From: Azolla caroliniana
Lineage: Eukaryota > Plantae > Polypodiophyta
Direction: 5' to 3'
NCBI GenBank assembly: GCA_043228905.1
Contig: JBHGNT010000021.1
Location: forward strand, 4,960,001 to 5,024,000
Length of the DNA stretch: 64,000 nucleotides
Part shown: piece by piece, positions 1 through 55,789 of the stretch
Numbering within the stretch: the stretch's first letter is position 1
Layout of the letters: each line of letters starts with the position of its first letter
Notes under the pieces: generated by a model
What the model saw: the letters and a program-made list of their open reading frames with translations, nothing else
What the model was told of the DNA's origin: nothing
The model's database searches: none
Made by a program: the position numbers and the translations under genes

Positions 1-873
1 CTCTTCTCCTCCAGCATTGCCCTAGCCGTGTCGACAATCATCTTAGTGGTGTAGTCCGTAACCGACATGTCTCTTTACCGGATGTTATTCAGCTCTTGCC
101 GAAGCTGCAACTTTCGGGATGTGCTACTCGCGACGAAAATCTTCGGTAGATTTTCCCAAGCCTCCTTCGAAGTCTTTGCATCCTTGATGTAGCCGAGCAT
201 CTGATCGTGCTCACAGGAAGCGAGGCAGTACAATACTCGACTCGCTCCTTGCTCCCATGTCAGGAAGTCCTTCTATGTTGGCTCCGGCGCTACCTCGTTG
301 GTTCCTTCCACGTAGCTCCAATATCCATGGCCCAACAGGTATTGGTGCATTTTATATGACCAGGACGCATAGTTGCTCCGGTCGAGCTTCTCTGTGGGAA
401 GTGAACTCGCCATACCTCTGTCCATATCTTTCTCTGTCTGTCCTTCACCGGATGTTAGGGTTTGTCTTCACTAGTCACTTGTCGGTTGAAGAGGTTCTCA
501 ACCCTCGCACTCTGATACCATGTGAAAGTTAGCGTGCAGAACCGTATTACAAACCGGCTCTACCGAATGGCGACAATAGAGAGAAAGGTTCAATGGAATC
601 TTAACATAGAGAATATGCGCGGGAGAGAGAGAGAGAGAGAGCAGAACGTAAACTCTATTCAGAAAGTAATAACACTCTGTATGTCACTCTACGTACATAG
701 AATGTGCTCAGAGAGCACTTTTATACAAGTCCATAAAGGACTGACAAAAGTACTGACAAGTACTTCAATGATTATACGAGCGATTGTCACTGACTCCCAA
801 AAATATGCCTACGTACTAGGTTGGATCCATAGGCCTCTAACGGCCTACTGGTTCCAATCATTCCACTCTCACA
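1..873 (-). mobile_element. Ty1/Copia LTR retrotransposon, 5' part (5' LTR 521-873, PBS, decayed gag fused to integrase); continues off the window
   Basis: LTR ends TGTGAAAG(521)...CTCTCACA(873). CTCTGATACCA at 510-520 is the reverse complement of the tRNA-iMet PBS. Minus strand reads gag-like 'HGYWSYVEG...AKTSKEAWENL...LQLRQEL...SVTDYTTK' with stops, then 'IVDTARAMLEEK' (integrase-like). Confidence 0.88.
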
Positions 874-1218
874 TATAGAAGTAAGGGATGTTGAATTTGC
901 AGACGACACTGCCCTATACTTAAAAGGTTATTTGGAAAATTTGCAAAAGATAGAATTGGTCATATACACATTCTATAAGGCTTTAGGTGCATTGGTTAAT
1001 TGGAACAAATCCTTTGCATTTTGGGTGGGAGATGTAAATCCACCGTTATGGAATCCACATCCGCAATTTCGATGGATACCATCAGGTTGCCCAGTTTGGT
1101 ACCTAGGATGTACTATAGATATTGATCTTTCGATGGAAAACCAAGTGACTCCCCTCCTATTGTCGTTGAGGCAAAAATGGTTGTTATGGAGTTCAGCCAA
1201 GTTGTCTTTCGTTGTCGT

Positions 1219-3239
1219 TGTCACGGACACACCAAGCGCGGACTAAGACGAAGCATGGATGATGAGGCTATGACGGAGCGATGATGCGAGGAACTTAAGA
1301 CAGGGAATGACACAAGAGCATAAAGATAGAGATGAAGATCAAGGAGAGAGGATGGGCGAAATGGGAATACAAGATTGATATGTCCATGACTAGCGTTGTT
1401 CACCTTGAATTCCTTCAAGGTGAAGTCAACTATTTATACTAAGCGGCATGCATACTTGTTGCACGCATGTGATACAATAGAGCATGTAGGCAGGAGGTAC
1501 GCATGCATGTGCCAAGTGTAAACAATACAAGGGAGAAATTATGCACATGATGCTAGCTTAAACCTACAATGAGGAAGTATATACATGATTATATGTTAGA
1601 TGTGTTGTTAACACATAACACTCCATTATAACATGGTCATGTCAAGAGTTTGAATCTTGACATTATCCCCCCTCCAACGATGCCTTCCCAAATCGTTAAT
1701 CGTCTTAAGGGTATATTGTTGATGAAAATCTTAGATCACCTCCAAAGTATTTTATAAATCCTAGACAAGGAGTAACCCTTCCACAAGACGAGGTATATAA
1801 CACCAACGGGCATGAGTGACCATGTGTGGTCCTTGCCTAGAACTGGAACACAAATATCAACGGGTGTGAGCGACCATGTGCGGTCCTGACGGGGAACTAG
1901 AACGGTCCCCGTTGAGAGTTGGAACACGAACACCAACGAGAGTGAACAACCAAGGACAACGAGAAATGGAACACGAACGAGTGAGCGACCATGTGGCCCT
2001 CACCGGGAACAGGAACACGAACAGGAGTAATCGACCATCTGCGGTCCTCACCGGGAATTGGAACATGTACAACAACGATCATGAGCGACCATGTCAGTCC
2101 TCACCGGGATCTAGAACACTAACAATAGTTGGAGTGAGCGGCCATGTGCAGTCCTCACCGGAGACTTGAACACGAACAGGAGTGAGAAACCATGCGGCCC
2201 TCACCAGGAACACGAACACGAACGGGAGCGAGCGGCCATGTGCGGGCCTCACCGAGAACACGAACACGAACGGGAGTGTGCGGCCATGTGTGGCCCTCAC
2301 CGGGAAAAGGAACACGAACGTGTGTGAGTGACCATGTAGCCCTCACAGGGAACTCAAACACGAACAGGCGTGAGCGACCATGCGGCCCTCACTAGGAACT
2401 CGAAAACAAACGTGTGTGAGCGACCATCCGGCCCTCACCGGGAACTCGAACACGAACGGGTGCGAGCGACCATGCGGCCCTCACCGGGAACTCGAACACG
2501 AAAACCAACGGGAGTGAGCGGCCTTGTGCGGACCTCACCAGGAACTAGAACACGAACACCAACGGGAGTGAGCGGCCTTGTGCGGCCCTCATCGGGAACT
2601 GAAACACAAACACCAACGGGAGTAAGCGGCCTTGTGTGGCCCTCACCGAGAACTAGAACACGAACACCAATGAGAAAGAAACTAAAAAATTGAGACAATG
2701 AAGCGATGTTGATAATGGTACGGTGACGATGGTAACTCTAGAACCAGGGGCGATGATGGAGACGGGTGATGCTTGTAGTTGGAAGGTGAACAAACTGTCA
2801 CGGACACACCAAGCGTGGACTAAGATGGAGCATGGATGATGAGGCTATGACGGAGCGATGACGTGAGGAACTTAAGACGGGGAATGACACAAAAGCATAA
2901 AGATAGAGATGAAGATCAAGGAGAGAGGATGGGCGAAATGGGAATACTAGATTGATATGTCCATGACTGGCGTTGTTCACCTTGAATTCCTTCAAGGTGA
3001 AGTCAACTATTTATACTAAGTGGCATGCATACCTATTGCACGCATGTGATACAATAGAGCATGTAGGCAATAGGTACGCATGCATGTGCCAAGTGTAAAT
3101 AATACAAGGGAGAAATTATGCACATGATGCTAGCTAAAACCTACAATGAGGAAGTATATACATGATTATATGCTAGATGTGTGGTTAACACATAACACTC
3201 CATTATAACATGGTCATGTCAAGAGTTCGAATCTTGACA
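1219..3239 (-). mobile_element. Non-autonomous chromovirus-derived LTR element (element A): 444-bp LTRs, tandem-repeat interior, chromodomain remnant
   Basis: LTRs 1219-1662 and 2796-3239 (TGTCA...TGACA, about 19 substitutions by eye). TSD GTCGT/GTTGT. PPT reverse complement TTATCCCCCCTCC at 1663-1675. Minus strand ~1700-1800 encodes 'IYLVLWKGYS' and 'DFHQQY'. Confidence 0.92.
1808..2670 (-). repeat. Tandem array of ~17 units of 46-54 bp, each with a GTGAG-GGCC-loop-GG(C/T)C-G-CTCAC hairpin
   Basis: Recurring + strand unit '...gaacacgaac(accaa)cgggagtgagcg(a/g)ccatg(tg)cggccctcaccgggaact...'. Confidence 0.95.
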
Positions 3240-3744
3240 GTTGTAGTGTATTTCATACACTACATGAAAAACTTATAAAGTAGTTGATTCAATAAATATG
3301 AAGAAATAGAAGAAAATATTAAAATATATATCATATGCATAGGGCAAGATTCAAACCTTGTACCTCCATGTAAACAAACTCAAACCTTACCATTATACTA
3401 ACATATCACAAGTGTTAAAAAAGTAAATATCCCACCTAGAAATTTTATTTCACGCATATTTTCTAGGATAAAGCTTTACTTAGAAGAAAAACGCATGATA
3501 GAAAAAAGCTACACATGCACATCTAGCGTGCATAAACACTATAGTCAATAAAAAATGCATGAGGTTAGAAAAAGCATGTTAGAGAAAGCATATAGTCTAT
3601 AGATAGAGAAAACATGGAGTCCATAGTTAGGGGGAAAAAATACATGGATTGCTAAGACTCTCTCATCACTAAATAAGGATGGGGAACACAATGTAATTGG
3701 AGAGAAAATTATCGATGAAGAATCATTAGGGTTCAAAAATAATG

Positions 3745-3990
3745 ATTAATAAAATAAACTATGCTTGTGGGATTCACAAGTTTTCTATATCTTTCTCTTC
3801 CAATCTATTCTAATTTATTAGTACGGTTTTAAATATTAATAAAATAAATAAACTATACTCGTGGGATTCATGAGGTTTCTATATCCTTCTCTTTCAAACT
3901 AAATTCATATTCTTAATTGAATATTGATTAATAAAATACACTATACTTGTGGGATTCACAAGTTCCTATCTCTCTTTCATATAATCTATT
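3745..3990. repeat. Three diverged ~85-bp tandem units in the solo-LTR-like insertion
   Basis: 'attaataaaata(a/c)actat(g/a)ct(t/c)gtgggattca(caa/tga)g...ctatatc' at ~3745, ~3835 and ~3925. Confidence 0.85.
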
Positions 3991-4840
3991 CATAACTAAA
4001 CTCGGCTCAAATTCTTCCTCTCCTAGTCCAAAACCCCAACGGTTCCCACCCGACTCACGCAACGATCCGGCGCCAAAAGGTGTGACATCGTTGGTCGGAT
4101 TGTAGTTGCCAATCAAGTTTTATTGGCTTCAACATGGTATGTTTTGTCATGTTAGATATTCTCCAAGTCATGTATTTTGAAAATACGTAGATTGATTCAT
4201 AATTTTCTGTGGTCCGGTAAAACGGAAGACAATGCTTGGTCTAAAGTGAAATGGGACGTAATTACTTTACCCCGCTCTAAAGGGGGACTAGGCATTATTG
4301 ATCCAGTAGACCAATCAAGAGCATTATTAAGTAAGTTGCTCGTTAGAGGATTTACCCCGGGGAAAGAGATATGGAAAGTATTATTGCTTGACCGCTGCTC
4401 AGATTTCTCTCCTCGCTTAGGTGCCCCCTGGTTTAAGGATGTAAATTGGATATTTAGGGAAAATTTTAGAATACCTACAGCTAACAAGTGGGAAGATAAA
4501 TTTATTAGGACATTATTTTCAACATGGAAACAAGTGTTACCTTGTTTGCTTCACAATTGTCATAATACGAACCCATGACCTTATGTTACATGGGTCAAGC
4601 TCTTGCCATTAGACTATATATTGTAATACGAAAGATGTTATTTTCATTTATTATTTCACTATAGAAAATTGATGTATATTCTAGATTTCTCTAGAACATT
4701 CTAGAAACTTCAGGAGTACTCCTGAAAACACTATAAAAGGAGGCACAAGGCATTATTTCGAACCAAATCAGTTTAACGCCAGTCTTAAGCCTCATAGCTA
4801 TTTTGTACTTACTCTTCATATAATATATCATCTATTATCA

Positions 4841-4915
<75 letters not shown>

Positions 4916-4918
<3 letters not shown>

Positions 4919-6027
4919 GGTGTGCATGTGTTCCTTTGTGCCACCCTTTTAGCACACCCTTTTTAGCCATGCCAACCCAAATGGGTTCCATTGTATCAAC
5001 TATAAATTGATTAAGAAGTAAGAAGCTAAGTAGACTGGTTTTGATCTCTTATGTGCATTCCACATATTGGTAGAGATGACGGGGTACCAGTCCCCCACAT
5101 CCAAGCATCCGCCTCTTCCGCTTCGTAGGTAGCATCGCCCTCACCACCATCACCGACACTCTTGTTAGTCTCTTGTAGTAGTATCTCTTCTATTAGCACC
5201 GCCTTAGTTCACTAGTTAGGCCTCCCGATATCCACCACTTCATCATCAACATCGCTTCATTGTCTCTATTTTTTAGTTTCTTTCGTGTTTGTGTTCGTGT
5301 TCTAGTTCCCGATGAGGGCCGCACAAGGCCACTCACACTCCCGTTGGTGTTCGAGTTCCCAATGAGGGCCACACATGGCTGCTCTCACTCCCGTTGGTGT
5401 TCGTGTTCTAGTTTCTGGTGAGGGGAGCATGGTCGCTCACACCCGTTCGTGTTCGAGTTTTCGATGTGGGCCGCACATGGCCGCTCACTCCCGTTCGTGT
5501 TCCTGTTCCCAGTGAGGGCCGCATGGTCGCTCACTCCCGTTTGTGTTCCAATCTTCGGTGAGGACCGCTCACTCCAACTATTGTTCGTGTTCTAGATCCC
5601 GGTGAGGACCGACATGGTCGCTCATGCCCGTTGTTGTTCATGTTCCAGTTCCCGGTGAGGGCCACATGGTCACTCACTCGTTCGTGTTCCAATTCTCGGT
5701 GAGGACAACATGGTTGCTCACGCCCGTTGGTGTTCGTGTTCCAACTCTCAGCGAGGACCGTTCCAGTTCCCGGCAAGGACCACACATGGTCACTCATGCC
5801 CCTCAATCTCTTGTTTCTCGCAGGGGGGAAATGTGGTGTGCATGTGTTCCTTTGTGCCACCCTTTTAGCACACCCTTTTTAGGATGCGTGTGCCCAAAAT
5901 GACCCACCCTTTTAGCACACCCTTTTTAGCCAGGCCAACCCAAATGGGTTCCGTTGTATCAACTATAAATTGATTAAGAAGTAAGAAGCTAAGTAGACTG
6001 GTTTTGATCTCTTATGTGCATTTCACA
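4916..6027 (+). mobile_element. Small non-autonomous TRIM-like LTR element (element B) in the (TA)n tract of the chromovirus 5' LTR
   Basis: LTRs 4916-5064 (149 bp) and 5832-6027 (196 bp, one extra 47-bp unit), TGTGG...CACA. PBS TGGTAGAGATGACGGGGTA at 5068 resembles the complement of plant tRNA-Ala. PPT AGGGGGGAAA 5822-5831. TSD is ambiguous within the TA tract. Confidence 0.9.
5285..5801 (+). repeat. Tandem array (~11 units) of the same hairpin repeat as 1808-2670, in reverse orientation on the + strand
   Basis: Units 'gtgttcgtgttc(t/c)agttcccggtgagggccgcatggtcgctcactcccgtt' are the reverse complement of the element A units. Confidence 0.93.
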
Positions 6028-6238
6028 TTATATATATATCCTTTTCTCTCTTCCTCTCTCGTGAGTCTTATGCATTCCCTTCTTCTTAGTACTAATCTTC
6101 ATAGTACTTCTCTTCTCTAGTACTAATTCTCTCTCTGTTTTAGTACTATTCCTGACAGTTTGAACCGATTTCTCCTTCCCTCCTCGTCATCTTATCCCTC
6201 CTTCCTTTCATACTAATCCTCTTATCCTCCCTAGTAAA

Positions 6239-9200
6239 ATGGCAACTATTAGCGCTCAGGGATACCAATCTGTTTTCTCGGAGCTCCAGTGCTTAAAAGA
6301 GAAATTTGTAGCACTAGAACAAGAAAATCACCATTTGTTGGGGGATCTTCAACAAATAGCGCTAGAAAAACAACAACACGGGGAGCTGACGTAACGTGTA
6401 CAACAACTTGAAGTGACTATTGTATCATTACAACAACAAGAATCAAGCACTCAAGGGATTCACAAAGAACCCAAGATCGGTCTTCCTACAAAATTCGATG
6501 GAACCCGATCACAGTTTAGAGGTTTTCTTAATCAGGTATGTTTAGTGATTCAAATGTGTGCTTCTCGATATCCCACCGATGCATCACGAGTGGGACTAGT
6601 AGGCACTCTACTTCGTGGCACAGCTTTGGCATGGTTTGCCCCCCTGTTAGAAAAAATCTCTCCCTTGTTAAATAATTTTGAAGAGTTTATTAGCAAGTTT
6701 AAAGCCTATTTTGGAGATACTGACAAAGTTAGGACGGCAATCAACAAAATCCGGAGATTGCATCCATTTCGCTACATCAATTGCGTGAGGAAGGATGCAA
6801 GGAAGCAATGTTTATCTTCGTAGTATCAGTAAAACCTTCCAACACCACTAAAGAGGAGTCCTCAGTTCAACTTCCAAAGAAGTATCGTCATTATGCCAAT
6901 GTGTTTGATAAGGTACAAGACAATACGCTTCCTCACCACCGACCGTATGATTGCCCCATTGATTTACAACCGAGAAAAAAGCCACCATGGGGACGATCTA
7001 CAATTTGTCACTGAACGAGCTAGAAGTCCTTCGAGCTATATAGAGGAGAATTTGGCAAACAATTTCATTCGACATTCGAAATCTCCAGCCGGCGCACCCA
7101 TTTTCTTCATCAAGAAAAAGGATGGATCACTTCGTCTCGTCATATACTACCGTGGCTTGAATAAGGTCACCATCAGGAATAGGTATGCACTTCCCCTTAT
7201 CTCAAGTATTTTAGAACAGTTCAATGGTGCAAGGTTCTTCACAAAGATCGACTTACGAGGAGCATATAACCTCGTACGGAACCAACCAAGAGATGAGTGG
7301 AAGACCGTGTTTCGCATTATATATGGGCAATTTGAGTATACAGTCATGTCATTCAGTCTCACTAATGCGCCAACAGTCTTCCAGCTCATGGCAAATCATA
7401 TATTCCGAGATCTCTTGGATGTTTGTTTGATCATCTATTTGGATGATCTACTAGTTTATTCGAAGACCCAAGAAGAGCATGATTCTCATGTACTATTAGT
7501 ACTAAAATGGCTTCGAGAATATGGTCTTTATGCAAAACTAGAAAAATGTAGTTTCAAGTGCAACCAAGTGGAATTTCTGGCTTATGTCATCTCCTCGAAA
7601 GGCATCTCTATGGATCCAGCTAAGGTCAAAACTGTGGTAGAGTGGTAGACTCCACGTTCGTTGCGAGATATGCAATGCTTTTTAGGCGTTGCCAATTTCT
7701 ACCACAAGTTTATACATGATTATTCAAAGATTATTCTACCTCTCACACAACTTATCAAGAAGGGGTAATCATTTGTTTGGTCTGAAGAAGTGGATATGGC
7801 TTTTGAGAGTCTTAAGAAGACATTTACATCAGCTCCTATCCTAGCTCATGCTGATCCGACAAAACCATTCATCATTAAGGCAGACGCATCAGATTTCGCC
7901 TTGGGTAGCATTCTTTCACAACAAGGCGATGATGAAAAGCTACATCATGTGGCTTGATCCGGCAAAACCATTCATCATTGAGGCAGACGTGTCAAATTTC
8001 GCCTTGGGTAGCCTTCTTTCACAACAAGGAGATGATGAAAAGCTACATCCTGTGGCTTTCCACTCACGCAAGTTTGACGTCACCGAAATCAACTATGAAA
8101 TTCACGATAAAGAGCTATTAGCAATAGTGGACTCTTTTATGCAATGGAGGCATTTCCTAGAGGGATCTGAATATCATCAAGTTCGGTGAGCCCAATTCCT
8201 CAAAATTACATATCGTCCTAGGAAGCAGCAAGGGAAGGTAGATGCGTTATCACGACACTCGTATCTGGCACCACGTCCCGGTGAGCCTGCATTCGATAAC
8301 CAAAAGCAAGTAATCCTGGGACTGGCACAACTGCAAGAAACACGGGTTTTCGATATGCCATTGGACTCCCACATTATCGATACCATACGTGGGGACTTGA
8401 AGACAGATGCTTTCGTTCAAGCCATTCTAGCACAAATTGATTCCTCTCGAGCATCTTGTTCACAGTCGCAACAACCAGGTACGGATTATCGACAATTCGA
8501 ATGTCATGATGGATTACTATTCTTTAAGAAGCTCTTGTATGTTCCTAATGGCTCTTGTCACCTTCAAGTAGTCCAAAATTGTCATGACACATATACAGTT
8601 GGGCATTTTGGTAGTACTAAAACGTTAAATTTAGTATAACGATCATTCTGGTGGCCTCATATGCGACGATTTGTCAAAGATTATGTTCGGACATGTGATA
8701 CATGTTTGCAGAGCAAAGATGCCAAGACATCATCTATATGGTTTATTGGAACCATTACCAATTCCAACCAAGTTGTGGCAATCCATTGCTCTAGATTTCA
8801 TCACAGATCTTCCTGTTTCTAAGGGATTTGATGCGATCTTAACAGTAGTAGATCGATATACAAAGATGGCCCATTTCCTACCATGTACTAAGGAAATCAC
8901 TAGAGAAGATACTATCGACAATTAGGTCCTTTCCGTACTATCGGAAAAATTAATGATGTCATTTTTCATCTCGATTTCCCTCCGCAACTGTGGATACATC
9001 CGGTGTTTCATAGTTCTCTCCTAGAACCCTATCAGAACAGCACCATCCCAGGTTGTATTAAACAACCTCCACCCCCGATCGAACTTGAAGATGGACATGA
9101 GTATGAGGTTGCCGCCATCCTCAATTCGAAGATTGTTCGCACCAAGCTCTGCTAGGATATAGTCCCAGCGAGCGTACTTGGGAACCAATAGAGAATGTGA

Positions 9201-9290
9201 CCAATGCTCATGCTCTTCTTGAAGACTTCCATCGTCAATCTCTAGACAAACCGGGTCCTCAATCCAAAACGACTCGTGACACTCGTCGTT
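6239..9290 (+). pseudogene. Chromovirus gag-pol remnant (gag, RT, RNase H, partial integrase, chromodomain)
   Basis: gag 'KEPKIGLPTKFDGTRSQFRGFL'; RT '[11 protein letters not shown]...KIDLRGAY...YLDDLL'; RNase H 'EADVSNFALG...NYEIHDKELLAI'; IN 'HDTYTVGHFG...ALDFITDLP...[11 protein letters not shown]'; chromodomain 'EYEVAAILNS...TWEPIENV...LLEDFH' (~9098-9250). Has stops, frameshifts, loss of protease and most of the IN core, and a 103-bp tandem duplication (7852-8057). Confidence 0.92.
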
Positions 9291-9842
9291 TTAAAGGGGG
9301 GATAGTTTCATGATATGGCAAGATTCCAACCCATGACCTTATGTTACATGGGTCGAGCTCTTGCCATTAGACTATATATTGTAATACGAAAGATATTATT
9401 TTCATTTATTATTTCACTATAGAAAATTGATGTATATTCCAGATTTCTCTGGAACATTCTAGAAACTTCAGGAGTACTTCTGAAAACACTATAAAAGGAG
9501 ACACAATGCATTATTTCGAACCAAATCGGTTCAACGCCAGTCTTAAGCCTAATAGCTATTTTGTACTTAAGAATTTGATGACATTCAAGTCGACCTTAGA
9601 TGATGGCACTATTCCTCAAGTTCCACTACGTCAGAAACCAAAGTTCAAATATTTGAGTATTCTCATAAATTAAATGACATGTATTTAACTAATAAAACAT
9701 AAAATTTTGTAAACCATCCTTATGATTTTCCTACAAAAAACTAGCTAAACAAATACCTAATTAGTTGTGGTCATTTTAGTAGCTAATTAGCTAATAATAA
9801 TAGTGTTTCCAGTCACATGCTTTTACCCATCATCTTTTATCA

Positions 9843-9924
<82 letters not shown>

Positions 9925-12900
9925 CATAGATTGACCCATGTGTGATATGTGTGGTATTCGACATCCGCAATATTCGTAGTATTCGAGAATATAAAATTGC
10001 TCCAAGAATATTATAAAACCATTCGTTTATAGAAAATAAATTTACATAATAAAAATTATTCAATTCACTTAAAAAAAGAAAGGAAAAATCACCAATTAAC
10101 AGAAAAATGGAAGGTCTTCAAAATCACACTAACATAAGAAAGAAAAGTTTTAATTAAAGTGATTATGAACCGTTATATTCTAATTTCTAAGTTCTAGGTT
10201 CTAACTTCTAACTTCTAAGTAATGCTTTGAAATTTAAGAGTCTATGCACTATCACATTCATCATCCGTATCTTCAAGCTCATCACTAATGTCCTTATGAG
10301 CTTCATTTTCTTCAATAGCTTGATTTTGCATTCTCAAAAGTCTCTCATCATCTTCTTCTTTGTTGATCATATCTAATGTTGCTTCAATTAGGCATAATCC
10401 CCTTTCCCTTATTCTTCTAATGAGACAATGATTTGTATGTATGTAAACCAATTTCTCAACATGAGCATGAGTCAATCTATTTCTTTTTTTTGTATGTATC
10501 GATGAGAATGTACTCCAATTTCTTTCACAAGAAGAGGCACATGAACCTTGAGAAAGCACACGAATTGCAAGCCTTTTTAAGTTTGGAGTGCTTGCTCCAA
10601 ATGTTTCCCACCACTTAATTGCATCATGCATTCTAGTTGGATCATTTGCCATAGGAACTTGAAATGAACTCTTTTGTTGAGTTTTATAATCATAGAATTC
10701 ATCTAATAAAACACCACATAAAGGTATATCACCATTAGTATACCACATAATAGTTTCCATCCAACTTGTATTCAGCTTCTCATCAATATCTTGAATTTTT
10801 TCTCTCCAAATTGGATGCAAAATAAAGCTAGTTGCATGCAATGGTGAATGTAGCATTGTCCATCTTTGCATACATATTCCCCGAATTTCATCAAGCAATA
10901 AATTATCTACATCTTCGATGTGGTTTATTTCTTCTATCATACGATGAGTACATTCATAAATTAAACCCATGGTTGCACCGTCTCTATCCGCCAATCTAAG
11001 AACTTTTAGGATTGGCTTGCATATCTTTACGATCTTCTTTATATTTGCCCAAAAAGAAGCATCAAGTATAATTGAAACTATTTCTTCTCCTAGTTGTGTT
11101 TTTTATCCTTTCCATTGACACCATTGTTCACTAACCACCATTCTTCTTAATCCACCTTTGACTCTGTCATCCAATAAGTGAGACAACATGATAAAACTAT
11201 AGGCAAATCTAGTAGTGGAAGGCTTTAACAATTCTTTCTCACTAAACTTACAAAACATTGCCAAAGAATTTTTTTTTCGTGTAATAAACACAATTACCTT
11301 TGTAGCTAATTTCAAAACATCATGAACCCAAGCACATTTTCCAATATCTTCAAACAACAAATCGATGCAATGACATGTGCATCTGGTAAAAAAGATCATG
11401 GGCCACTCTTTCTCTATCATCCTCCTAGCTACTACACAATTAGTTGCATTGTCCATACAAACTTGCACAACATTTGATGGGCCAATATCAAGAATAACAT
11501 CCTTTAAAATCTTAAAGATATACTCTCCCGATTTATATTCTCCACTAGTGTCAACTAATTTCAGAAACACAGTGCCATACGCAGAAGTAGCCATGACATT
11601 AAGTATTGGTCTATTCTTGGTATCTGACCAACCATCACTCACAATAGTGCATCCAATAGTTTTCCATTTTTCTCTAATTTGCATAATCTCCTTTTCAACA
11701 TATTTCACCTCTTCATTCAAGTGCCTTTTGCGCAATTGATTAGGAGATGGTGGCTCATAAGAAGGCCCAACAAGTGCCACAGCTTTTATTAATTCACAAA
11801 AATATGTACTTCCCACTTTTACATCCGGTATATCCTCTACAAAAAAAACCTCTTGATTGCTTCATCAGCATTTTTATCAAGTTGCTTTTGCCATAACAAC
11901 TTCAAAGGTTCAACATTGTCTACTTTCATCTTTTTACTTGTTGATGCATTACCAAACGATAATGAAGGCGTTTCATTAATAGATGTTGATTCCACATTCA
12001 TATCAACATTTGTGCTACAATTTTCAGCATTGCATTCCATTGATGACTCACCATTCATGTCAACATTTGCACAACCAGATACCATTTTTTGTACTTCAGC
12101 TTTTATAACAGCATCAATTTGACGGCATTTGTCAACACCTAAACCTTTCAAGCCCAGTAAGTGAGCTCTAATTCGAAAGGGCCCACCAACAAATACATGG
12201 TGACAATGTTTGCATTGAACAACAAGCATACCCTTATCATGTTTTCTCAAAACGGTCACATGATTCCATTTGAAGCTCTTTTGCTTCACCATTTAGTAAA
12301 TTAACCTTCAATTGATCCTGAAAGAGATTAATTTGATACCTAAAAATGAATTAAAACCATCGTTAGCCAAAATCTTCATTAATCCTACCTCTAATTAAAA
12401 TCTATTATGATTGCATAATCCTACAATGCTAGCATGAATAAATCACAGAAGATTGGACAACATTGAGATGAGAAGAGAGAGTTAATGAGCTTTGGCAAAA
12501 CCCTAATTTTCAAGGAATAATTTTAAGAGACTTTTTGATCCAAAATCTTCATTAATCCGGCCTCTAATTAAAATCTAATTAAGTTTGGATGATCCTACAA
12601 TGCCTCCAATTAAAATCTAATCTTATGATCATTGCATGAATAAATCATGGATTATTGGACAACTAATTTTTCCCAAACCCTAATTTTTAGGAAGCAATAT
12701 ATAGAAAGAGGTCTCAAATAGAATGCCTCCACAACCAATTTACTCAAGATACTATGACTAAATTATGCAACAAAATACACTATATTAAATGACCCAATTG
12801 ATAAAAAACCCATAGCATATTCATAATCCATGCAATTATTTTCAATATGTTTTCATCACCATAGCTCCTAACATCTTCATATTCCATGGAGTTATTTCCA

Positions 12901-23733: not shown

Positions 23734-26700
23734 ATGAAAACAAAGTGTTCCAAAGAAGAGAAATTTTTCTCTTCTTCTTTCTGCTGCTCAATGAATTCTT
23801 CCTCCAGCCCGTCCGTCTCTTCTCGAGCCCGAGATTCTATATTCAATTATGATATAAGTCTTCTGAATCAAGAAGAAACTGTGCTTGACTTGCCGTGGAT
23901 TTCAACTTCTGATCAGAAAGAGATCAGAATTGAGAAGAAAAACAGGAAAGACGATGAAGAAGAAAGTGAGGTTCAAAGACGGGCTCTTGGGAGACTGAGA
24001 TGCTCGATTCTCAAAGAATGGAGCATAAATTCGATAACTCGATTGATGTGTGGCGTCGTTTGCAATCCTCTTCTCAGCTCAAGGTTTGCTTTAATGGTAT
24101 GCTTTCTACTACCTTTTGGGGGTTCAAGAATTGCATTAATTGTATACTTAATACCTGTTTTTGCGTTTTATGGTTAAATTCGAGTGTTTCATTAATGGGG
24201 TTTACACATTTGCTGTGAGGATTGGCATTTGTAGTATCTTTTGTAGCTGAAGGGTTTAAACCCTGTTTAGGGTTTTAGGGTTTAGAGTTCAAGTCTTGGA
24301 ACCCTCTTCTTAGATCAATGTTTGCGGTAATAGTATGTTTATAATAACTATTTAGGGCTATGCAATTAAAGGGTTGCGTTAATGGCATGCTTATGATATT
24401 TGTTTTAGGGTTTAGTGTTGCGTGATGTAGGTTCAAGTTTTAGCAGTTAAGTTTATGTTTTAGGGTTTTAAGATTTTACTACTTATTATAATATCGATTC
24501 AATTTGAGCGTTAGGGTGGTTCAGGTTTTAGTTTACGGGCTTATTATAGCAGTGAAGAATTCGGGGTTTAGTATTCTTTTAATGTCGATCTATGTTTTGG
24601 TCCAGGGACTCAGAATTTAGGGTTTCATGCTTAAGGGCTTTGGTTTATTAAAATGTAGAATTGAGTGAGTTTTTTGGGTTTAGGGTTTTTTAGCATTTAG
24701 GATTTATTATATTGTTGATCTGTTATGGGTACCCTTCTTGTCTGATTAGATTTCGTATTTTCCATTTCTTATCATTATTATTATTCCTTATGGGTTGAGG
24801 TTTTATTGCTTATGATTTATAGTTTAAGGCATTCTTATACATATCATCTATTTCAGGTATCTTTCAGTTCAGACCAGACTCACCAATCTTTGTTTATTAT
24901 TTCTTCTTACATACATCAGGGATTACTGGCATTACTTCTGATCTTGATGACAGCATTTACTTGGGTGCTTACGTCCACAAATGTGGAGCATTCCGTGAGC
25001 TCAATCGCACTGAAATTACGTTCTGAACTGCTCTTCCAGGCAGGAGACAGAGTGAATGCTGTGCTTCAAGGGAGTAATGCTTCTGCAACTTCTTTGGCAA
25101 GGTTTTTGAGTCCATTCATTAATCAAGACAACATATCCTCCCTTTCTTACATTCAAAATCAGGTAAGCTTGGACATTGCATTTTTGAAGATGTAGGATTT
25201 TGGGTTTTAGACATTGAGGATTAAGGATCTTAGTATTAAGGAATAATGAGTAATATTTCTGGTTTAGGGGTTTTGGTTCTAGGTTTTAAGGGGGGGGTGG
25301 GATAATTTAGGGGAGTGTGTTACACTATGACTTTATGTAAGTGTTCAAGGTTGTTGGACAAATTCTTGTGGTGTCTCAGGTGGAGCCTGCTCTGTTCTTA
25401 ACTTTCTCAATCCTTTCGAGGAAAGCACGAGTCACATTCCTCGGTGCAAATGGATTGTTTCGATCGTATGTTGCAGATGCCACAGGGGTATGTCTACTAT
25501 ATGCAAACACTTCATATCTCTTCCCCAACTCATCTGATAAGATTTCAGAGCCATCGGCAATTCCATGGAAGGAAGGCGAAAATTTAACGATTACTCGCCC
25601 ATGGTATAGATGGTATTATCAGAGAGTTGATGTAATCTCAGGTGCATTGATAGGGGAAGCCACATCAATTACTCCAATACCCTATTGGGATATCTTGCCA
25701 TTGAAGAATTCATTGAAAGGTCACTCTACATCGGTGAGTTGGGGACCTTCTCCCATTGATATAAATGAGATTTCATTCTCATTCTTGTCCCCTGTTCAGC
25801 AAAATTTGAGAGAAAATCCAGTCGGGGTTGTCTCAATTGGGGTTTCTATGGCAGACATAATTAGCATTATTGACCAGTTTGAGCTTTATGGTGGGGCAAT
25901 ATACATTGCGACAAATGATGGAAAATTGGTGGCTCAAACTAGATTCAGTTCTTTGCCATTGGACACTGATAATAGCAGCTCAATATCAGCGATTACAAAT
26001 TCTAACAATCCCATTGTTGCCGGGGCTGCTCAATATTTGATGCCATATATCCCTTCCATTTTAGCTATGACAAACCGCTCCTTCACAGCAGAGGATGTTG
26101 ACATTCATGGTACCCGCTACATGATCAATAGTGCACCTCTTCATTTAGCAGGGGCTACATTGGTAATTATCCTTTTTCGGCCTCATCTGTAGCAATTTTG
26201 AATGAAGTATAGAAATTAGTGTTTGAATCTTTTTTCGACTTCAACTAGTTGATCTTCACCATTCATCTATCTTGTGATAAACATAATGCAGGTGTGTACA
26301 GTAATAGTTCCCTACCACAGTGTCTGGGGCATGACGGAAAAGCGAAGCCAAATGACCTTAGCAGTATTGATTGCATTGGGTACTTGTATGGGTCTAGTAG
26401 GATGTTTCTTCATTATTCTATTAACCAAGGGAATCAGCAACGAGATGAGGCTGCGGGCGTCATTGATTCAGCAGCTTGAAGAGACAAAACGGGCTGAATC
26501 AAAGAGCAACCACAAGAGCCTTGTGTTTGCAAACATGAGTCACGATCTTCGCACTCCGTTGGCTGCCATTCTTGGCCTTATTGACCTGTGTCTTTGTGAT
26601 GCTACTGAGTTGTCAGAATTGGAGTCAAACCTCATACAAATGAAATCATGTGCCACCAACTTGTTAGGTAAGGCTTTTTTGAGCTTGGTTTTTTCCTTGA

Positions 26701-29375
26701 GGTGGTTATTGAGTGTGGTTTCTAGTCTCTAGCTCTAATAAAAAGCTTATAATAACAACTTGTACTTTTTTATAGGCATCTTGAACTCAATTTTGGACAT
26801 GAGCAAGATTGAGGCTGGCAAACTTCAATTGCAAGAGTCAGGGTTTGATTTAGTCCGAGCTCTTGAGGAAGTAGTAGATACTTTCTCTGTCTTGGGCTTG
26901 AAGAAAGGTGTGGAAGTTGTCTTAGATCTGTCAGATAGTTTTGTTGAGAAGGCATCTTGGATCTTTGGAGATGGAGGTCGTATAAAACAAATCGTTGCCA
27001 ATCTTCTTAGTAATGGTGTTAAATTTACGTCAGAAGGACATGTTGTATTGCGAGCATGGGTGAAGCCATCTGACATAGCCAATGCTAGACACCAAGGAAA
27101 GCTGATGGGTTGGCCATGGAATCAAATCCTGAGGTCTCCTTCAAGAGAGAAGGATCTGCATAAACTTGTTCAAGGTCTTCCTCACCATGAACATGAAGAT
27201 GGTTACTTACAAATTGAATTTGAGGTGGATGACAGTGGAAGGGGCATACCAAAGGAGCGATGGAAGTCTGTATTTGAAAACTTTGTTCAGGTTGAATCAT
27301 CTGGACCCAGGATTTATGATGGCACAGGTCTTGGCCTTGGCATCGTCAGATCATTGGTAAGTTATAGAACTCCTAGATTGATTTCATACCCATTTTTACA
27401 GCACATTCTTCTCATGTGTTTTATCCTAACAGGTAAGATTGATGGGCGGAGAAATTGACATAATTGACAAGGACGAGCCTGGTGAACCTGGAACTCGATT
27501 TCGATTCAATTTGATTTTAAAGTGTGGTAAGAATCCTGACATAAAGCCAAACGAGGATTGTGTCACAAAAAACATTCAGTTGCACAATGAAGCTTCTTTG
27601 GAATATTCATATGGCGTCGGTAATGGGCCGATCTCTCCTCAATGGCAGCTTGATTCTTCAGGGGCTTTTGCTTTTTCTCATGGTTTAGATCTCACTGGCT
27701 TCAATACTCCACCTATTATGGAATGTGTCCATGTGCTGCTTGCTATGCATGGTCAAGCAGGAGAGCAAATAGTAAAAAGCTGGATGGAGAGGAGGGGTTT
27801 ACAAGTGTGTAATGTAGGGTCGTGGGATGAACTGAGTCCAGTAGTTGAGAGAATGAAGCATGACATGTTTTCTGAAAGTGAGAGTTCTTCGGGGAGGCCT
27901 GGATACAGGTCACCAGAAAGTCGCATCTATGACTCGTGGGGAGATGAACTTGATATAAGAGGTCTTCCGAGAATCCAAATCGGAACAGACACTTGTATCG
28001 AAGGTATGCATATATCGGATGAGGCTCGATGTGCTCACAAAATGAGTCATAGAACATCACATGCCCATCTTCTTCTGATCGTAGATGTGGCTATGGCAAC
28101 GGGGGGCATATCTGATTTGTGTTCAGAGTTAGAGGACATTCTCATGGATGCTGATTGGCCTGCTACTTTTAGAGTTGTATGGTTAGTCAATGTTGATACA
28201 CCAAGTGTTGATATTCAATACTTGAGAAGGCAAACCCATGTTTGCCATCTTATTTTGCATAAGCCATTGTATGCTTCTCGGTTGAAACGAGTTTGGAGTT
28301 TGCTTCAAGAACTAGTAGGGAATGCTGAACGCGATTCTTTCGAAGTTGAGCCTTCTCATCTACATTCAGGAAATTGCGAAAAGGTTGATTTGAATGCTTC
28401 AAACTCTTTATACAAGTCACTTTCTTGTATGAGTACATTCCAAGAGGGAGCAATAGATTTGCCTTCAGGTCTTGTGGGCAAAGCAAGAACCGCAACTCTT
28501 GTAGATAAGAGTGGACCTAGTAGCTCATCTACCTTACTTAGTATGGCTCAAGGAGGAAAACAGCAGCAATTTGATCAAACTGAAAGTGCTAAAGAATCAG
28601 GAAACAAAGATTTTTCATCAATTGAACTTATCTCTCACCGGAATGTGGACAATCTAAATAGAAGTGTAGATGGTCTTTCTGCTTCGAGGGATAAATCTAG
28701 GCTTGCTTTATCAGCAATGCATATACTTGTGGCTGAGGACAATCTGATCCTTCAACGTTTGACTACAACACAGCTCACTAGGCTTGGGGCTAGTGTTGAG
28801 TGTGTTGATAATGGTGCTGATGCTGCTCGTTTAGTCCTTGAGAATCTGTACAGGAATCAGTCATCTTCTCATTCGAGTGTGCAAGAGGATGTTCGAAAGA
28901 ATCACTTGTTCGACCTCGTGCTTATGGATTGTGAGGTATACTAGTTGTTCATTATTTTACATCATAGTTTCAACGAGTCCAGCATCATCAACATACTTAG
29001 GATGTGTGCCATGTAGTGCATCCTAATGCTGTAGATTCTATTGTAAAATATATAAGCACCTTGCTCTCAGATCAATACTGCATTCATTACCATTGTTGCT
29101 GAACTGTATTTATTTATTTCTCTGTATGATTGGTATTGCAGATGCCCATTTTGAATGGATATGAAGCTACACAACGCATTCGTGGTGAAGAAACAAGGTA
29201 TGGTGTTCGAACACCAGTGATTGCTTTAACAGCTCATGCAATGGCCCAAGATGAGAAGAAATGCATTGAGGCAGGGATGGATTTCTACTTGACCAAACCA
29301 CTCTCGATAGATGTCTTACTTGATGTGGTTACGAAACTACTACATAGCCGAAGTAATACTGATGTGGTTACATAG
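23734..29375 (+). CDS. CKI1: CKI1-like hybrid sensor histidine kinase, ~1360 aa; exons 23734-24096, 24920-25162, 25380-26162, 26292-26667, 26776-27356, 27433-28935, 29142-29375
   Basis: GT-AG introns with consistent phases. Two TM helices flank an extracellular region. H-box 'FANMSHDLRTPL', N-box 'NLLSNGVKFT', G1 'DDSGRGI', G2 'GTGLGLGIV', receiver 'ILVAEDN...LMDCE|MP...GYEATQRIR...YGVRTPVIALTAH...KP'. The YGVRTP and DCxMP context is CKI1-like. The exon 1 start codon is the least certain part. Confidence 0.9.
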
Positions 29376-49323: not shown

Positions 49324-52300
49324 TGTTGAAGACAGCGCTCGGCCACAACCGAGGAATAGGATCTACTCACAGAAAACGGGAAATACAAGAATGCACGAAA
49401 ACAATAAAGAGAAGGGTACACTGGATGTTTTACGTGGAAAACCCTAAATGGGAAAAACCACGGGAGTGCAAGACTCCAACTATCACTATACGCGGGGAAT
49501 GTACAATGGCGAGCTGCAAGGCGACGACCTTGAGCTCGCTGTCCTCGCCACAGGCGGCGGTATTACACAGAGGCGTCGACCTCTTCCTTCCTCTTTCTCT
49601 CTCACTCTCTCTCGGCTGCTCTCACTTCGCTTCCTCTCAGTGGAAAACAGAAAAAAATGAGCAACAACAACATAAAACTGTTTGCCCTAAGTCATACTTA
49701 TACACATATGACTTTCGGGCTATTTACAAATATAGCCTCAAGGGCCCTTGGCAAACATATTCACAAATATGTCCCCGCATCCGGATCTCTCTCCGGGTAC
49801 ATTCGTCATCCGGCTCCGTAACCGGGGTCTTCATCATCCGGATCCGTATCCGGGTACTCTTCATCCGGCTTCATGCCGGGTACTCTTCATCATCCGGTTC
49901 CGTAACCGCAACCGGGCTTGCCGTCATTCATCTCCGGACATCCCATCCGGAGGGACCGAAATCCCAACAAACTCCCCCTTCACTTTGGCATGGGATGTCT
50001 CTCCAATCCGACTCTCTTCCGGCACGCTCCCAGCTTGTCGGGTGTGAGTACTTTGGTCAGCATATCTGACCCGTTCTCTTCCGTGTGGATCTTCGTCAGC
50101 ACGAACTCCTGGTCTTCTATCCTTTCCCGGATCCAGTGATATCTTCGCTGGATGTGCTTCGTCCGGGAGTGATAGGCCGCGTTCTTCGCAAGGTGGATGG
50201 CACTCTGACTGTCACAGTAGAGTCGGTACTCCTCTTGCCGGATACCGAGCTCTCTAATGAAGTCCTTCATCCATATTATTTCCTTGCCGGCTTCAACAGC
50301 CGCCATGTACTCCGCCTCCGTGGTTGACAACGCAACCGTCTTCTGCAGCCTCGACTGCCACGAAACAGCTCCACCTGCATACGTCATCACATACCCTGAT
50401 GTGGACTGGCTGGTATCTGCATCAGCCGACATATCCGAATCGGTAAAGCCGTCGAGTTCGGGCTTACCGGAGCCGAATCGGAGGCACACGTTTGCTGTGC
50501 CCTTCAGGTATCGGAGTATCCACTTGACCGCGTTCCAGTGCTCTTTGCCGGGATTGCTCATGTACCGGCTCACCACTCCAACTGCATATCCTATGTCCGG
50601 TCTTGTACACACCATTGCGTACATCAAGCTTCCGACGGCAGAGGCATATGGTACTTTCATCATGTCCTCCTTCTCAGCCTTTGTCTTGGGGCTTTGCTTG
50701 CTGGACAACTTGCAGTTTGCCGGTAGGGTTGACCCGACCGGTCTTGCTTCCGACATGTTGAACCGGTGAAGCACCTTTGTCACGTACTTCTCCTGTGACA
50801 GCCACAACTGCTTCTTCTTCCGGTCCCGGATGATGTGCATCCCTAGTATTTGCCTCGCCGGACCCAGGTCCTTCATTGAGAAGGTTCGGTGAAGCGCTTT
50901 CTTCAGCATCCGTATCTTGACCTGGTCCCGTCCGACGATCAACATGTCGTCCACGTACAGGAGGAGTATTAGAGAGTCTCCTCCTTCGAACTTCTTCACA
51001 AACACGCAGTGATCAGACTGCGTTTTGTGGTACCCTTCGTCGGTCATGAAGGAGTCGAACTTCCGGTACCATTGCCGGGGAGCCTGCTTCAGTCCGTAAA
51101 GGCTCTTCTTCAACCGGCATACCAGGTGCTCCTTCCTTTTCTTCTCGAATCCTTCCGGTTGCTGCATGTAGATCTCTTCTTCGAGGTCACCGTGAAGGAA
51201 TGCCGTCTTCACGTCCATCTGTTCTACCTCGAGGTCCATACTTGCCGCTATGCTCAGCACCGTCCGGATGGAGGTCATCTTCACTACCGGGGCAAATATC
51301 TCGTCGAAGTCGACGCCCTTCTTCTGCTGGAACCCCTTCACCACGATCCTGGCTTTGTATCTTGGGGGGTTTTCGGCATCTCCCGGTTTCAGCTTGAACA
51401 CCCACTTGTTTCGAAGTGCCCGCTTTCCTTTCGGCAACTCCACAAGTTCATATGTGTGGTTCTCATGCAGGGAATCCATCTCCTCCTGCATGGCACTTAA
51501 CCACCTGCGGCTATGGGTGTCAAGCTTTGCTTCTTCAAAACTCTCCGGCTCCCCCTCGTCGGTTAGCAGCACGTGCTCTGGTTCCGGAAATCTCCGGGGG
51601 GCCCTTCTCTCTCTTAGAGGATATCTCCGTTCCGGAGCTTCGGTAACCGGCTCCTCCGTTTCCTCTTCATCCGAATCCATTTCGGGATCGGGGCCGGTTC
51701 CGGTATCAGTTTCATCTTCCTCGGCCGGTTCTGTTTCTTCACCGTCTTCGGCCGGATCCTCGAGTGCTAACCGGTCCCTTGCCGGTCGGGACTGCTCCTC
51801 GTAGAGTTGATTCTCACCGGTCGACTTGGAGCTCTTCATCTTCTTCTCCGACTCCCAGTCGGCGAGCGTCTTGTCCTCCATGAAGATGATATCTCGACTC
51901 CTGAACATCTTCTTGTCGACCGGGTCCCATACTCGGTAGCCGAACTCGTCGTCGCCGTAACCGAGGAATATGCATGGCCGGGTCTTTGGATCTAGCTTTC
52001 CTCTCCGGTCCTTTGCCACATGCACATACGCGAGACATCCGAACACCTTCAGATGCCGGTAGGACACTTCCTTACCGGTCCACACTTTCTGCGGCGTGTC
52101 TCCGTCCAAAGGTACTGAGGGTGATCTATTTATCACATACGTCGCCGTCGACATTGCCTCAGCCCAAAACCCCTTGGGTAATTTCGCATGCGCCAGCATA
52201 CTCCGGACCCTCTCCATTATGGTCCGGTTCATCCTCTCGGCCAGCCCGTTCAGTTCCGGCGTCTTCGGCACAGTAAACTCGAGCCGGATTCCCTTCGAGC

Positions 52301-54730: not shown

Positions 54731-55789
54731 ATAACCTACCCCCCCTTAAGTACAACCATGGGACTGACCAAACCCTAATATCTCATGAAGACCATAATAA
54801 AGTGATACGCCAAGAAATATGGCAAATTTACACTCGATATAAATGGATCACCCCACAAGAGCCACTCCCATCTAAAATGTTGTACTATAAGGAACACTTC
54901 TTGCACTTCTCTTAGTTAGGTTTTACTACACAACCAAGATATCTAGATACATTCTTATCAAATGCACTAAGGGTTGCCATTGGACAACTTAGGATATCAT
55001 CTCACCAACTTGAGATTGAGAATGGTCGGGCTAATCGAGTCCCTAGGGAGGAAAGGTTGTGTAGGTTGTGCCACATAGAGATAGAGGATGAGTATCACTT
55101 CACATGCAAGTGCCCAACATATGCCGAGATACGAGTGGAATACCAAGAGATATTCGGACCCTCTCCCACCCTCTCCAAACTATTAGATACCTCGGATGTA
55201 AACAGACTAGGTAGGTATACCTTAGAGCTAAAACATCATAGGGAGAACAAATTACAAAGTGTTAACCATAACCCTTTTACTATTTATCAACTGTAACTAG
55301 TGCAATTTTTCAGGAACAAGGGGAGACGATGAATATGGATACACTCACGCTGCTCGGCCTCTCTCTTGAGGAAGCCGAAACGCAAAGAACAACCAAATGC
55401 CCTCGGATGTTGGGCTTCAAAACAAGTCAACACGGAGTAGAAATGATTAAGAAGATAAGGGAACATGAGCTACGTCGACTAGAAGCTATGGTTGGGGTAC
55501 CTTTTACATTGGGGCCATGGGCCACATCCACATCGAAACCCTTTGACCTCTCGCTTTCTTCGAGAAACTTGGATAGAAATGAAATTAGGCCTAGTATAAC
55601 ATCATTTTCATTGTAGAACATGTTTGTTATTTTATTTTACTAGAACTATTTAGCTTAAAACTCTATTTTTTTATTTTTTATTTACTTTCAATGAATGGGT
55701 AAATATCCCATTTTTTGTTGTAAACCATTTGTCTCATGGGCCAATTTTGACCTTAGAAGACGTTACTATATCTTTCTTTCTTTCTTTCT

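What the first reader, a model, noticed from the sequence alone, without database searches (positions are those of the whole stretch)
2783..3015. Element A appears self-priming (Tf1-type): its PBS pairs with its own transcript start
Seen: on the element strand the 5' LTR is followed by GT-TTGTTCACCTT (2793-2783), not TGG. The exact 11-nt complement AAGGTGAACAA lies in the LTR (2983-2973; also 1406-1396), starting 32 nt after the first base of TATAAATA (3015), where a Pol II start is expected. Established: S. pombe Tf1 primes reverse transcription with the first 11 nt of its own mRNA. Inference: this non-autonomous plant element is tRNA-independent.
Basis: partly seen in the sequence, partly recalled or inferred. 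Interest (0 to 1): 0.75.

Follow-up and report, generated by a model that had tools for sequence, protein, structure and literature searches.

The report
Self-priming non-coding fern retrotransposon
A protein-free jumping gene, in what is likely a fern genome, has a primer site that pairs perfectly with the predicted first 11 letters of its own RNA, and related families keep that pairing with different letters, so it likely starts copying itself without a host tRNA, as yeast Tf1 does and as was already predicted for related moss elements.

Summary
Observation confirmed. Element A (3239-1219, minus strand; 2,021 bp; LTRs 95.7% identical; no ORF of 150 aa) has GT+TTGTTCACCTT after its 5' LTR. 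The exact complement starts 32 nt after TATAAATA. The LTR-PBS junction occurs 293 times in the genome. 25 of 30 sampled loci lead into gag of a Ty3/gypsy chromovirus whose RT groups with fungal and vertebrate (Tf1/sushi-type) proteins. Six different PBS sequences each match their own LTR. Of 99 junctions, 75 have the complement 31-35 nt after a TATA box, 73 of those at a pyrimidine|A start. A second 16-bp stem flanks the duplex, as in Tf1. The transcript start and the cleavage were not measured. The mechanism is known (Tf1) and was predicted for 83% of plant Tcn1 elements (Neumann 2019), so this is a new member of a known kind. The scan noted a similar non-coding case in a ray. Extras: the host is likely a fern, where a 2010 PCR survey found no Tcn1; a hairpin spans the predicted start; and the same tandem-repeat interior sits in two self-primed LTR shells and one tRNA-Ala-type shell.

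The parts
2796..3239 (-). 5' LTR of element A (444 nt, TG..CA)
   Evidence: 95.7% identical to the 3' LTR
3008..3015 (-). TATA box (TATAAATA)
   Evidence: sequence; same spacing to the primer across lineages
2976..3001 (-). 11-bp hairpin spanning the predicted U3/R border; its 3' arm holds the first 8 nt of the primer
2973..2983 (-). predicted self-primer = predicted first 11 nt of the transcript
   Evidence: start inferred from TATA spacing and C|A initiator; not measured
2952..2967 (-). R arm of the second (R:U5) stem
   Evidence: in both MFE and centroid folds; coordinates
2797..2812 (-). U5 arm of the second stem (13 Watson-Crick + 3 G-U pairs)
2794..2795 (-). 2-nt spacer GT between LTR and PBS
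2783..2793 (-). primer-binding site TTGTTCACCTT
1676..2782 (-). non-coding interior with a degenerate 46/54-nt tandem array (1969-2670)
   Evidence: no credible Rfam match
1663..1675 (-). polypurine tract GGAGGGGGGA plus TAA spacer, the same as in coding family D1
1219..1662 (-). 3' LTR; flanks ACAAC/ACGAC give a 4-of-5 target-site duplication
6158..6171 (+). comparison element C (decayed chromovirus): GT + 12-nt PBS
9523..9534 (+). element C: exact complement of its PBS in its 3' LTR, 33 nt after TATA (9490)

Best explanation
Element A is a non-autonomous LTR retrotransposon related to Tf1/sushi-type (Tcn1-like) chromoviruses, and it likely primes its own minus-strand DNA with the predicted first 11 nt of its RNA, using a coding relative's enzymes. 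Shown: the element's anatomy, the 11-nt complementarity, the copy numbers, the U3, primer, PBS and PPT shared with coding family D1, and covariation. Inferred steps: (1) Pol II would start at 2983. (2) The 5' end would fold onto the PBS, held by the adjacent 16-bp R:U5 stem. (3) Helper RT/RNase H would cut after nt 11, as established for Tf1, and extend through AC-TGTCAC into U5. (4) Plus-strand synthesis would start at the PPT, and helper integrase would insert the copy with 5-bp duplications. (5) Less certain, about 0.35: the U3/R hairpin forms only where U3 is transcribed, that is in the 3' LTR copy, and would hide that second copy of the primer sequence.
For: Junction present 293 times, control 0. 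25 of 30 sampled loci continue into gag, 4 into the A interior, 1 into neither. Family D carries gag plus PR-RT-RH-INT-chromodomain. Its RT falls with fungal, fish and frog proteins, apart from Chara and seed-plant ones (100/99), and is 71% identical to a Cunninghamella protein versus 48-52% to seed plants. Other PBS types: 734 and 520 junctions, overlapping sets, controls 4 and 3. Of 99 distinct junctions, 75 have the best complement 31-35 nt after a TATA box; 55 of the 75 match 11/11 and 18 match 10/11; mean 10.7 pairs versus 8.0 when PBSs are shuffled between elements (maximum 8.9 in 5,000). The -1/+1 bases are CA in 69 and TA in 4 of 75, and pairing stops at the 5' edge in 74 of 75. One variable site co-varies in 35 of 36 C-lineage copies. 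Sister family E shares A's U5, post-PBS sequence and interior, but differs at 4 of 11 PBS positions, all mirrored in its primer. The fold from 2983 gives primer:PBS plus the 16-bp stem, z = -2.87. Literature: Tf1 mechanism (PMC7175516 passage); pretzel structure (PMC10085805 passages); Tcn1 83% self-priming (PMC6317226 supplement row).
Against: No start site, cut or primer was observed; only assembled contigs were available. 24 of 99 junctions lack the signature: 19 from the loose pattern and 5 with family-type PBSs. The 75 copies stand for about six independent PBS types, so the shuffle and Fisher numbers overstate significance. The 35-of-36 site is a CpG. The third pretzel duplex is absent from the MFE fold, and the R:U5 stem has a median of 0 pairs in the C lineages. 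If transcription began upstream of the hairpin, the primer would be sequestered: pairing probability in A falls from 0.93 to 0.30. The primer site was located using the PBS, so only the TATA spacing and the initiator are independent evidence.
Confidence: 0.87

Rival explanations
1. Priming in trans: A's PBS is primed by the identical 11-nt fragment cut from a co-packaged helper (D1) RNA, and A's own 5' end need not fold back.
For: A and D1 have identical primers and PBSs and 80-84% identical U3. A must be co-packaged with helper proteins in any case (inference).
Against: A keeps its own 16-bp R:U5 stem, with sequence unlike D1's. Family E keeps a different primer matched to its own PBS, and none of 9 E copies had gag within 1.5 kb; a coding partner elsewhere was not searched for.
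Confidence: 0.06
2. A host tRNA or half-tRNA primes, and the LTR match is incidental.
For: tRNA priming is the rule in plants (PMC6317226). My tRNA set was incomplete: 39 distinct genes of 12 anticodon types.
Against: There is no TGG. The best match of A's PBS to those 39 tRNAs is 6 nt and not at a 3' end. The C-type PBSs match 9 nt in a tRNA-Asn, ending at position 61 of 77, which is not a 3' end. Six different PBSs each follow their own LTR.
Confidence: 0.03
3. The pairing is a leader structure for packaging, dimerisation or translation control, and priming happens by another route.
For: Long leader stems also occur in tRNA-primed retroelements (PMC3601003 passage), and no biochemical test exists here.
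Against: The paired tract sits exactly 2 nt after the LTR's terminal CA, no other primer site is present, and pairing ends at the predicted +1 in 74 of 75 copies.
Confidence: 0.04

Closest known systems
Tf1/Tf2 of Schizosaccharomyces pombe; Tj1, Tosmo, sushi (Tf1/sushi group)
   Same: 11-12-nt PBS next to the 5' LTR complementary to the predicted RNA 5' end; adjacent R:U5 duplex; coding relatives are chromoviruses grouping with fungal and vertebrate RTs.
   Different: A encodes nothing. Only two of the three pretzel duplexes were found. The U3/R hairpin is not mentioned in the passages I read; Levin's primary papers were not held. The mechanism is shown for Tf1 and only inferred here.
Plant Tcn1 chromoviruses (REXdb; PMC6317226, PMC2864245)
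   Same: Non-seed-plant host, 5-bp TSD, chromodomain, predicted self-priming (83% of 1,500 elements). A meets REXdb's rule of 10 nt or more starting 0-5 nt after the LTR.
   Different: Reported from mosses and Selaginella; a PCR survey of 26 ferns and horsetails found none. This host is likely a fern. REXdb covered coding elements and used complementarity only. No named Tcn1 was in my tree.
TRIMs and other non-autonomous LTR retrotransposons
   Same: LTR-PBS-non-coding interior-PPT-LTR layout, many copies and solo LTRs.
   Different: 2,021 bp with 444-nt LTRs and no tRNA PBS, outside the TRIM definition quoted in PMC6934838 (under 1,000 bp, 100-250-bp repeats, tRNA PBS).
TAR lineage Ty1/copia (Houba, Osr-1)
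   Same: Plant elements predicted to self-prime.
   Different: A's coding relatives are Ty3/gypsy, not copia.

Membership tests
Self-priming Tf1/sushi group | PBS beside the 5' LTR complementary (10 nt or more) to a segment of the LTR | tested here: met
   11/11, starting 2 nt after the LTR; criterion from PMC6317226 section 20
Self-priming Tf1/sushi group | No tRNA-complementary PBS | tested here: met
   no TGG; best match 6 nt among 39 distinct tRNA genes, an incomplete set
Self-priming Tf1/sushi group | The complementary segment is the 5' end of the transcript | tested here: inconclusive
   TATA+32 or +33 in 73 of 75 and pyrimidine|A in 73 of 75; only contigs available, which cannot show a start
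Self-priming Tf1/sushi group | Three-duplex 'pretzel' leader | tested here: inconclusive
   central duplex and R:U5 duplex predicted, third duplex not in the MFE fold; definition from PMC10085805
Self-priming Tf1/sushi group | RNase H cleavage releases the primer | not testable with these tools
   needs biochemistry
Self-priming Tf1/sushi group | Ty3/gypsy polyprotein with chromodomain, RT in the fungal/vertebrate chromovirus cluster (tested on the coding relative, family D1) | tested here: met
   groups inferred from host names, with no labelled Tf1 or sushi sequence in the tree
Plant Tcn1 clade (strict) | RT clusters with named Tcn1 elements (Cryptococcus, Physcomitrium, Selaginella) | tested here: inconclusive
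   no named reference obtained; nearest relatives are unnamed
Plant Tcn1 clade (strict) | Chromodomain with aromatic cage | tested here: met
   Y, W and Y at the expected places in the D1 chromodomain (printout); cage positions are recalled, not from a call
Plant Tcn1 clade (strict) | 5-bp target-site duplication | tested here: met
   9 perfect solo-LTR TSDs among 30 loci; 3 perfect among 6 two-LTR D1 copies; 4 of 5 for the window copy
TRIM | Under 1,000 bp, terminal repeats 100-250 bp, tRNA PBS | tested here: not met
   2,021 bp, 444-nt LTRs, no tRNA PBS (definition)
Non-autonomous LTR retrotransposon | Two LTRs, PBS, PPT, TSD, no coding capacity, cis-signals shared with a coding family | tested here: met

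The most novel reading that the evidence does not exclude
Self-priming LTRs carry an undescribed primer switch. A hairpin across the U3/R border masks the primer sequence in the 3' LTR while leaving it free at the capped 5' end. The PBS is rewritten from the primer in each cycle, so one non-coding tandem-repeat cargo has been able to move between two self-priming shells (A, E) and a tRNA-Ala-primed shell (B), changing helper and priming mode. This would sit in a fern lineage where Tcn1-like elements were thought absent.
Probability: 0.3. Interest if true: 0.65.

Novelty: new member of a known kind. Interest (0 to 1): 0.42.

Why it matters
Plant self-priming has rested on a complementarity rule, in the papers I could read. 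This genome supplies covariation across six primer sequences and a single-nucleotide prediction of the transcript start for about a thousand or more junctions, so CAGE or 5' RACE can test it directly. It indicates that parasitic non-coding elements can use the mechanism, and probably extends Tcn1-like elements to ferns. PBS-dependent annotation or capture methods that assume tRNA priming would miss these families (inference). The mechanism itself is not new.

Tried and rejected
RNA evidence: the run search gave 13 runs, all assembled contigs. Four were laid and cannot show a start or expression; they gave only a lead to family E, then found directly in the genome. Rfam on 1100-6300 gave one microsatellite artefact and no ribozyme. 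The pattern for PBSs beginning TTGT+V gave 24 hits versus 3 in the control; none of the 19 distinct ones examined had a TATA-anchored complement, so they were rejected as members. The first tRNA script was spoiled by a circular-sequence artefact and was rerun. Test for re-templating of the PBS: the nearest neighbour shares the PBS letter by U3 in 33.5 of 36, by U5 in 32.6, and by post-PBS sequence in 24.5; this is only mild support, since U5 does nearly as well. No autonomous partner U3 was found for family E among 11 LTRs compared (55-67%, background about 55%). Named Tcn1 references were not obtained. The nearby copia (49324-54731) is not the helper, because A's LTR and PBS are shared with gypsy elements. 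Levin 1997/1998 and Atwood-Moore 2006 were not held. An exact pattern for B's junction found only the window copy, which carries a variant.

Full report
1. Observation. On the minus strand, element A runs from 3239 to 1219. It has two 444-nt TG..CA LTRs (3239-2796, 1662-1219; 95.7% identical), flanks ACAAC/ACGAC (4-of-5 TSD) and a PPT at 1675-1666. No ORF of 150 aa lies in it. The interior is mostly a degenerate 46/54-nt tandem array with no credible Rfam match. After the LTR come GT and TTGTTCACCTT; the exact complement lies at 2983-2973 and 1406-1396, 32 nt after TATAAATA. One of 20,000 simulated LTRs gave such a match.

2. Family and helper. A DNA search found 42 scored matches among 1,845 candidates in a 523-Mb genome, including solo LTRs with 5-bp TSDs (9 perfect among 30 loci). 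The exact LTR-end+PBS string occurs 293 times, control 0. Of 30 sampled loci, 25 continue into gag, 4 into A's interior and 1 into neither. Six of 12 extended copies showed both LTRs at 97-99% identity within 7.5 kb, with A's PPT. The polyprotein is gag plus PR-RT-RH-INT-chromodomain. Its RT sits with fungal, fish and frog proteins, split from Chara and seed-plant proteins (100/99), at 71% identity to a Cunninghamella protein and 48-52% to seed plants. That places it in the Tf1/sushi group by inference from host names. No labelled Tcn1 was in the tree. Sub-family D1 shares 80-84% of A's U3 (one truncated copy 63%), the primer, the PBS and the PPT, but not R/U5 (55-69%), so it is the likely helper. 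A host histidine-kinase exon is 70-76% identical to Adiantum and Ceratopteris proteins and at most 56% to other named plants, so the host is likely a fern. An earlier scan note on this genome guessed moss (e1-10619271).

3. Covariation. A decayed chromovirus in the same window (element C) has a different 12-nt PBS at 6160, whose complement lies 33 nt after its own TATA. Degenerate patterns found 734 and 520 further junctions (overlapping sets; controls 4 and 3) and 24 near background. Of 99 distinct junctions examined, 75 have the best complement 31-35 nt after a TATA box; 55 match 11/11, 18 match 10/11, and 2 match less. The 24 others are 19 from the pattern and 5 with family-type PBSs, possibly with interrupted LTRs (not checked). 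Six PBS sequences have perfect partners: TTGTTCACCTT, TTGAATCCCTT, TTGAACCAATTT, TTGAACCGATTT, and single copies of TTGAACCGAATT and TTGATTCGAATT. Own pairs average 10.7 versus 8.0 shuffled, but copies are related, so the six types are the real sample. Independent of how the site was found, TATA-to-start distance is 32 or 33 in 73 of 75, and -1/+1 is CA in 69 and TA in 4. Pairing stops at the 5' edge in 74 of 75. In lineage C one site co-varies in 35 of 36 copies and is mixed across a tree of flanking sequence; it is a CpG site. Family E is non-coding in 9 of 9 copies checked within 1.5 kb. It shares A's R/U5 (68-84%), post-PBS sequence and interior, and has a U3 at background identity. Its PBS differs at 4 of 11 positions, mirrored in its primer. 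The direction of the U3 swap between A and E cannot be told.

4. Structure. RNA starting at 2983 folds into primer:PBS plus a 16-bp R:U5 stem (z = -2.87; 2 of 200 shuffles fold as well). Mean primer:PBS pairing probability is 0.80-0.93 in all seven lineages. The second stem has a median of 12-17 pairs in A, D1, D2 and E, 0 in C and C3, and 5 in C4. Tf1 needs three duplexes (PMC10085805); the third was not found. An 11-bp hairpin (3001-2976) spans the predicted start. It beats shuffled U3 in A 4/4, D1 13/13, D2 9/9, C 13/35, E 4/9, C3 0/3 and C4 0/1. Its U3-only pairs vary together: GAA/TTC 16, GAT/ATC 8, GGC/GTC 1, and 2 imperfect, of 27. With U3 attached it outcompetes the PBS (0.93 to 0.30 in A). 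It could mask the 3' LTR's copy of the primer (inference). Against a selected role: it is not universal, and one element shows matching changes in both arms of only its 5' LTR, which suggests DNA-level homogenisation of a quasi-palindrome.

5. tRNA check. Among 39 distinct tRNA genes of 12 types (incomplete), A's PBS matches at most 6 nt, and not at a 3' end. By contrast element B (4917-6027) has a TGG PBS. B carries the same tandem interior (78% over 526 nt) in unrelated LTRs, and its family PBS matches a host tRNA-Ala 3' end over 11 nt, then a 1-nt bulge, then 6 nt. The same cargo therefore occurs in self-primed and tRNA-type shells.

6. Mechanism. Shown: anatomy, complementarity, copy number, shared cis-signals, covariation. 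Established elsewhere: Tf1's first 11 bases pair with the PBS and RNase H cuts between bases 11 and 12 (PMC7175516). Inferred here: start at 2983, fold-back, cleavage by helper RNase H, extension into U5, PPT priming, integration. Not measured: any RNA end. Rewriting of the PBS from the primer during plus-strand synthesis is recalled from retroviral biology and only mildly supported here.

7. Prior knowledge. Neumann et al. 2019 (PMC6317226; passages, section 20, one supplement row) predict self-priming for Tcn1 (83% of 1,500, mosses and club-mosses) and for TAR. The per-element table was not among the supplement text searched and may hold closer parallels. Novikova et al. 2010 (PMC2864245; passages and section 7) found no PBS evidence in SM-Tcn1 and no Tcn1 in 26 ferns and horsetails. 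Also seen as passages: PMC4600332, PMC7175516, PMC10085805, PMC3601003, PMC3350952, PMC6934838, PMC8282616. The Levin primary papers and Butler 2001 were seen as citations only. Nine searches (listings, with only the papers named above opened) showed no report of a self-priming non-autonomous plant element, of Tcn1 in ferns, or of a U3/R primer-masking hairpin. Subscription papers and bioRxiv supplements were not visible. The scan has noted self-priming on other DNA, including a non-coding case in a ray (not checked).

8. Verdict. It is a new, non-autonomous member of a known kind, with better comparative support than the published plant predictions I could read and a probable extension to ferns. 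Interest 0.42. The boldest reading (primer-masking hairpin, PBS rewriting, cargo switching priming mode) has probability about 0.3 and interest 0.65.

Noticed in passing
window 4570-9569 (+): Element C: decayed Ty3/gypsy chromovirus with its own self-complementary PBS. Its 5' LTR is split by a (CT)n(AT)n microsatellite and element B; the primer in the 5' LTR has 2 mismatches, the 3' LTR copy is perfect.
   Followed up: yes
window 4917-6027 (+); family loci L194-L218: Element B: about 1.1-kb non-autonomous element with the same tandem interior as A and E but unrelated LTRs and a tRNA-Ala-type TGG PBS. Its 3' flanks often begin ATAT, and three copies lie about 910 nt apart on contig C2. Its helper was not sought.
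   Followed up: partly
L144-L164 (family E): Non-coding sister family of A with another U3, primer and PBS; no coding partner found among the LTRs compared.
   Followed up: partly
L032/L033 (G000:C10, 10.315-10.333 Mb): One A copy with nested insertions; its 5' LTR alone has matching changes in both hairpin arms while the PBS is unchanged.
   Followed up: partly
window 49324-54731 (-): Young Ty1/copia copy: 647-nt LTRs 99.8% identical, one 1,447-aa reading frame.
   Followed up: no
window 1-720 (-): Start of a decayed copia-like element with a TGG-type PBS at 520-510 (tRNA-iMet type, recalled).
   Followed up: no
window 10242-11861 (-): Broken hAT transposase: DUF659 and dimerisation domain.
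   Followed up: no
window 26253-27458 (+): Exons of a CKI1-like histidine kinase, best hits in ferns.
   Followed up: partly
L173-L190: Two small repeat families hit by the junction pattern (TTGTGCCACAT and TTGTAGGTCGT types) have no self-complement within 600 nt upstream; their nature is unknown.
   Followed up: no
L219 1448-1794: Two tandem tRNA-Ala genes with a GGC anticodon, which is unusual for a plant nuclear set (recalled), on a chromosome-scale contig.
   Followed up: no
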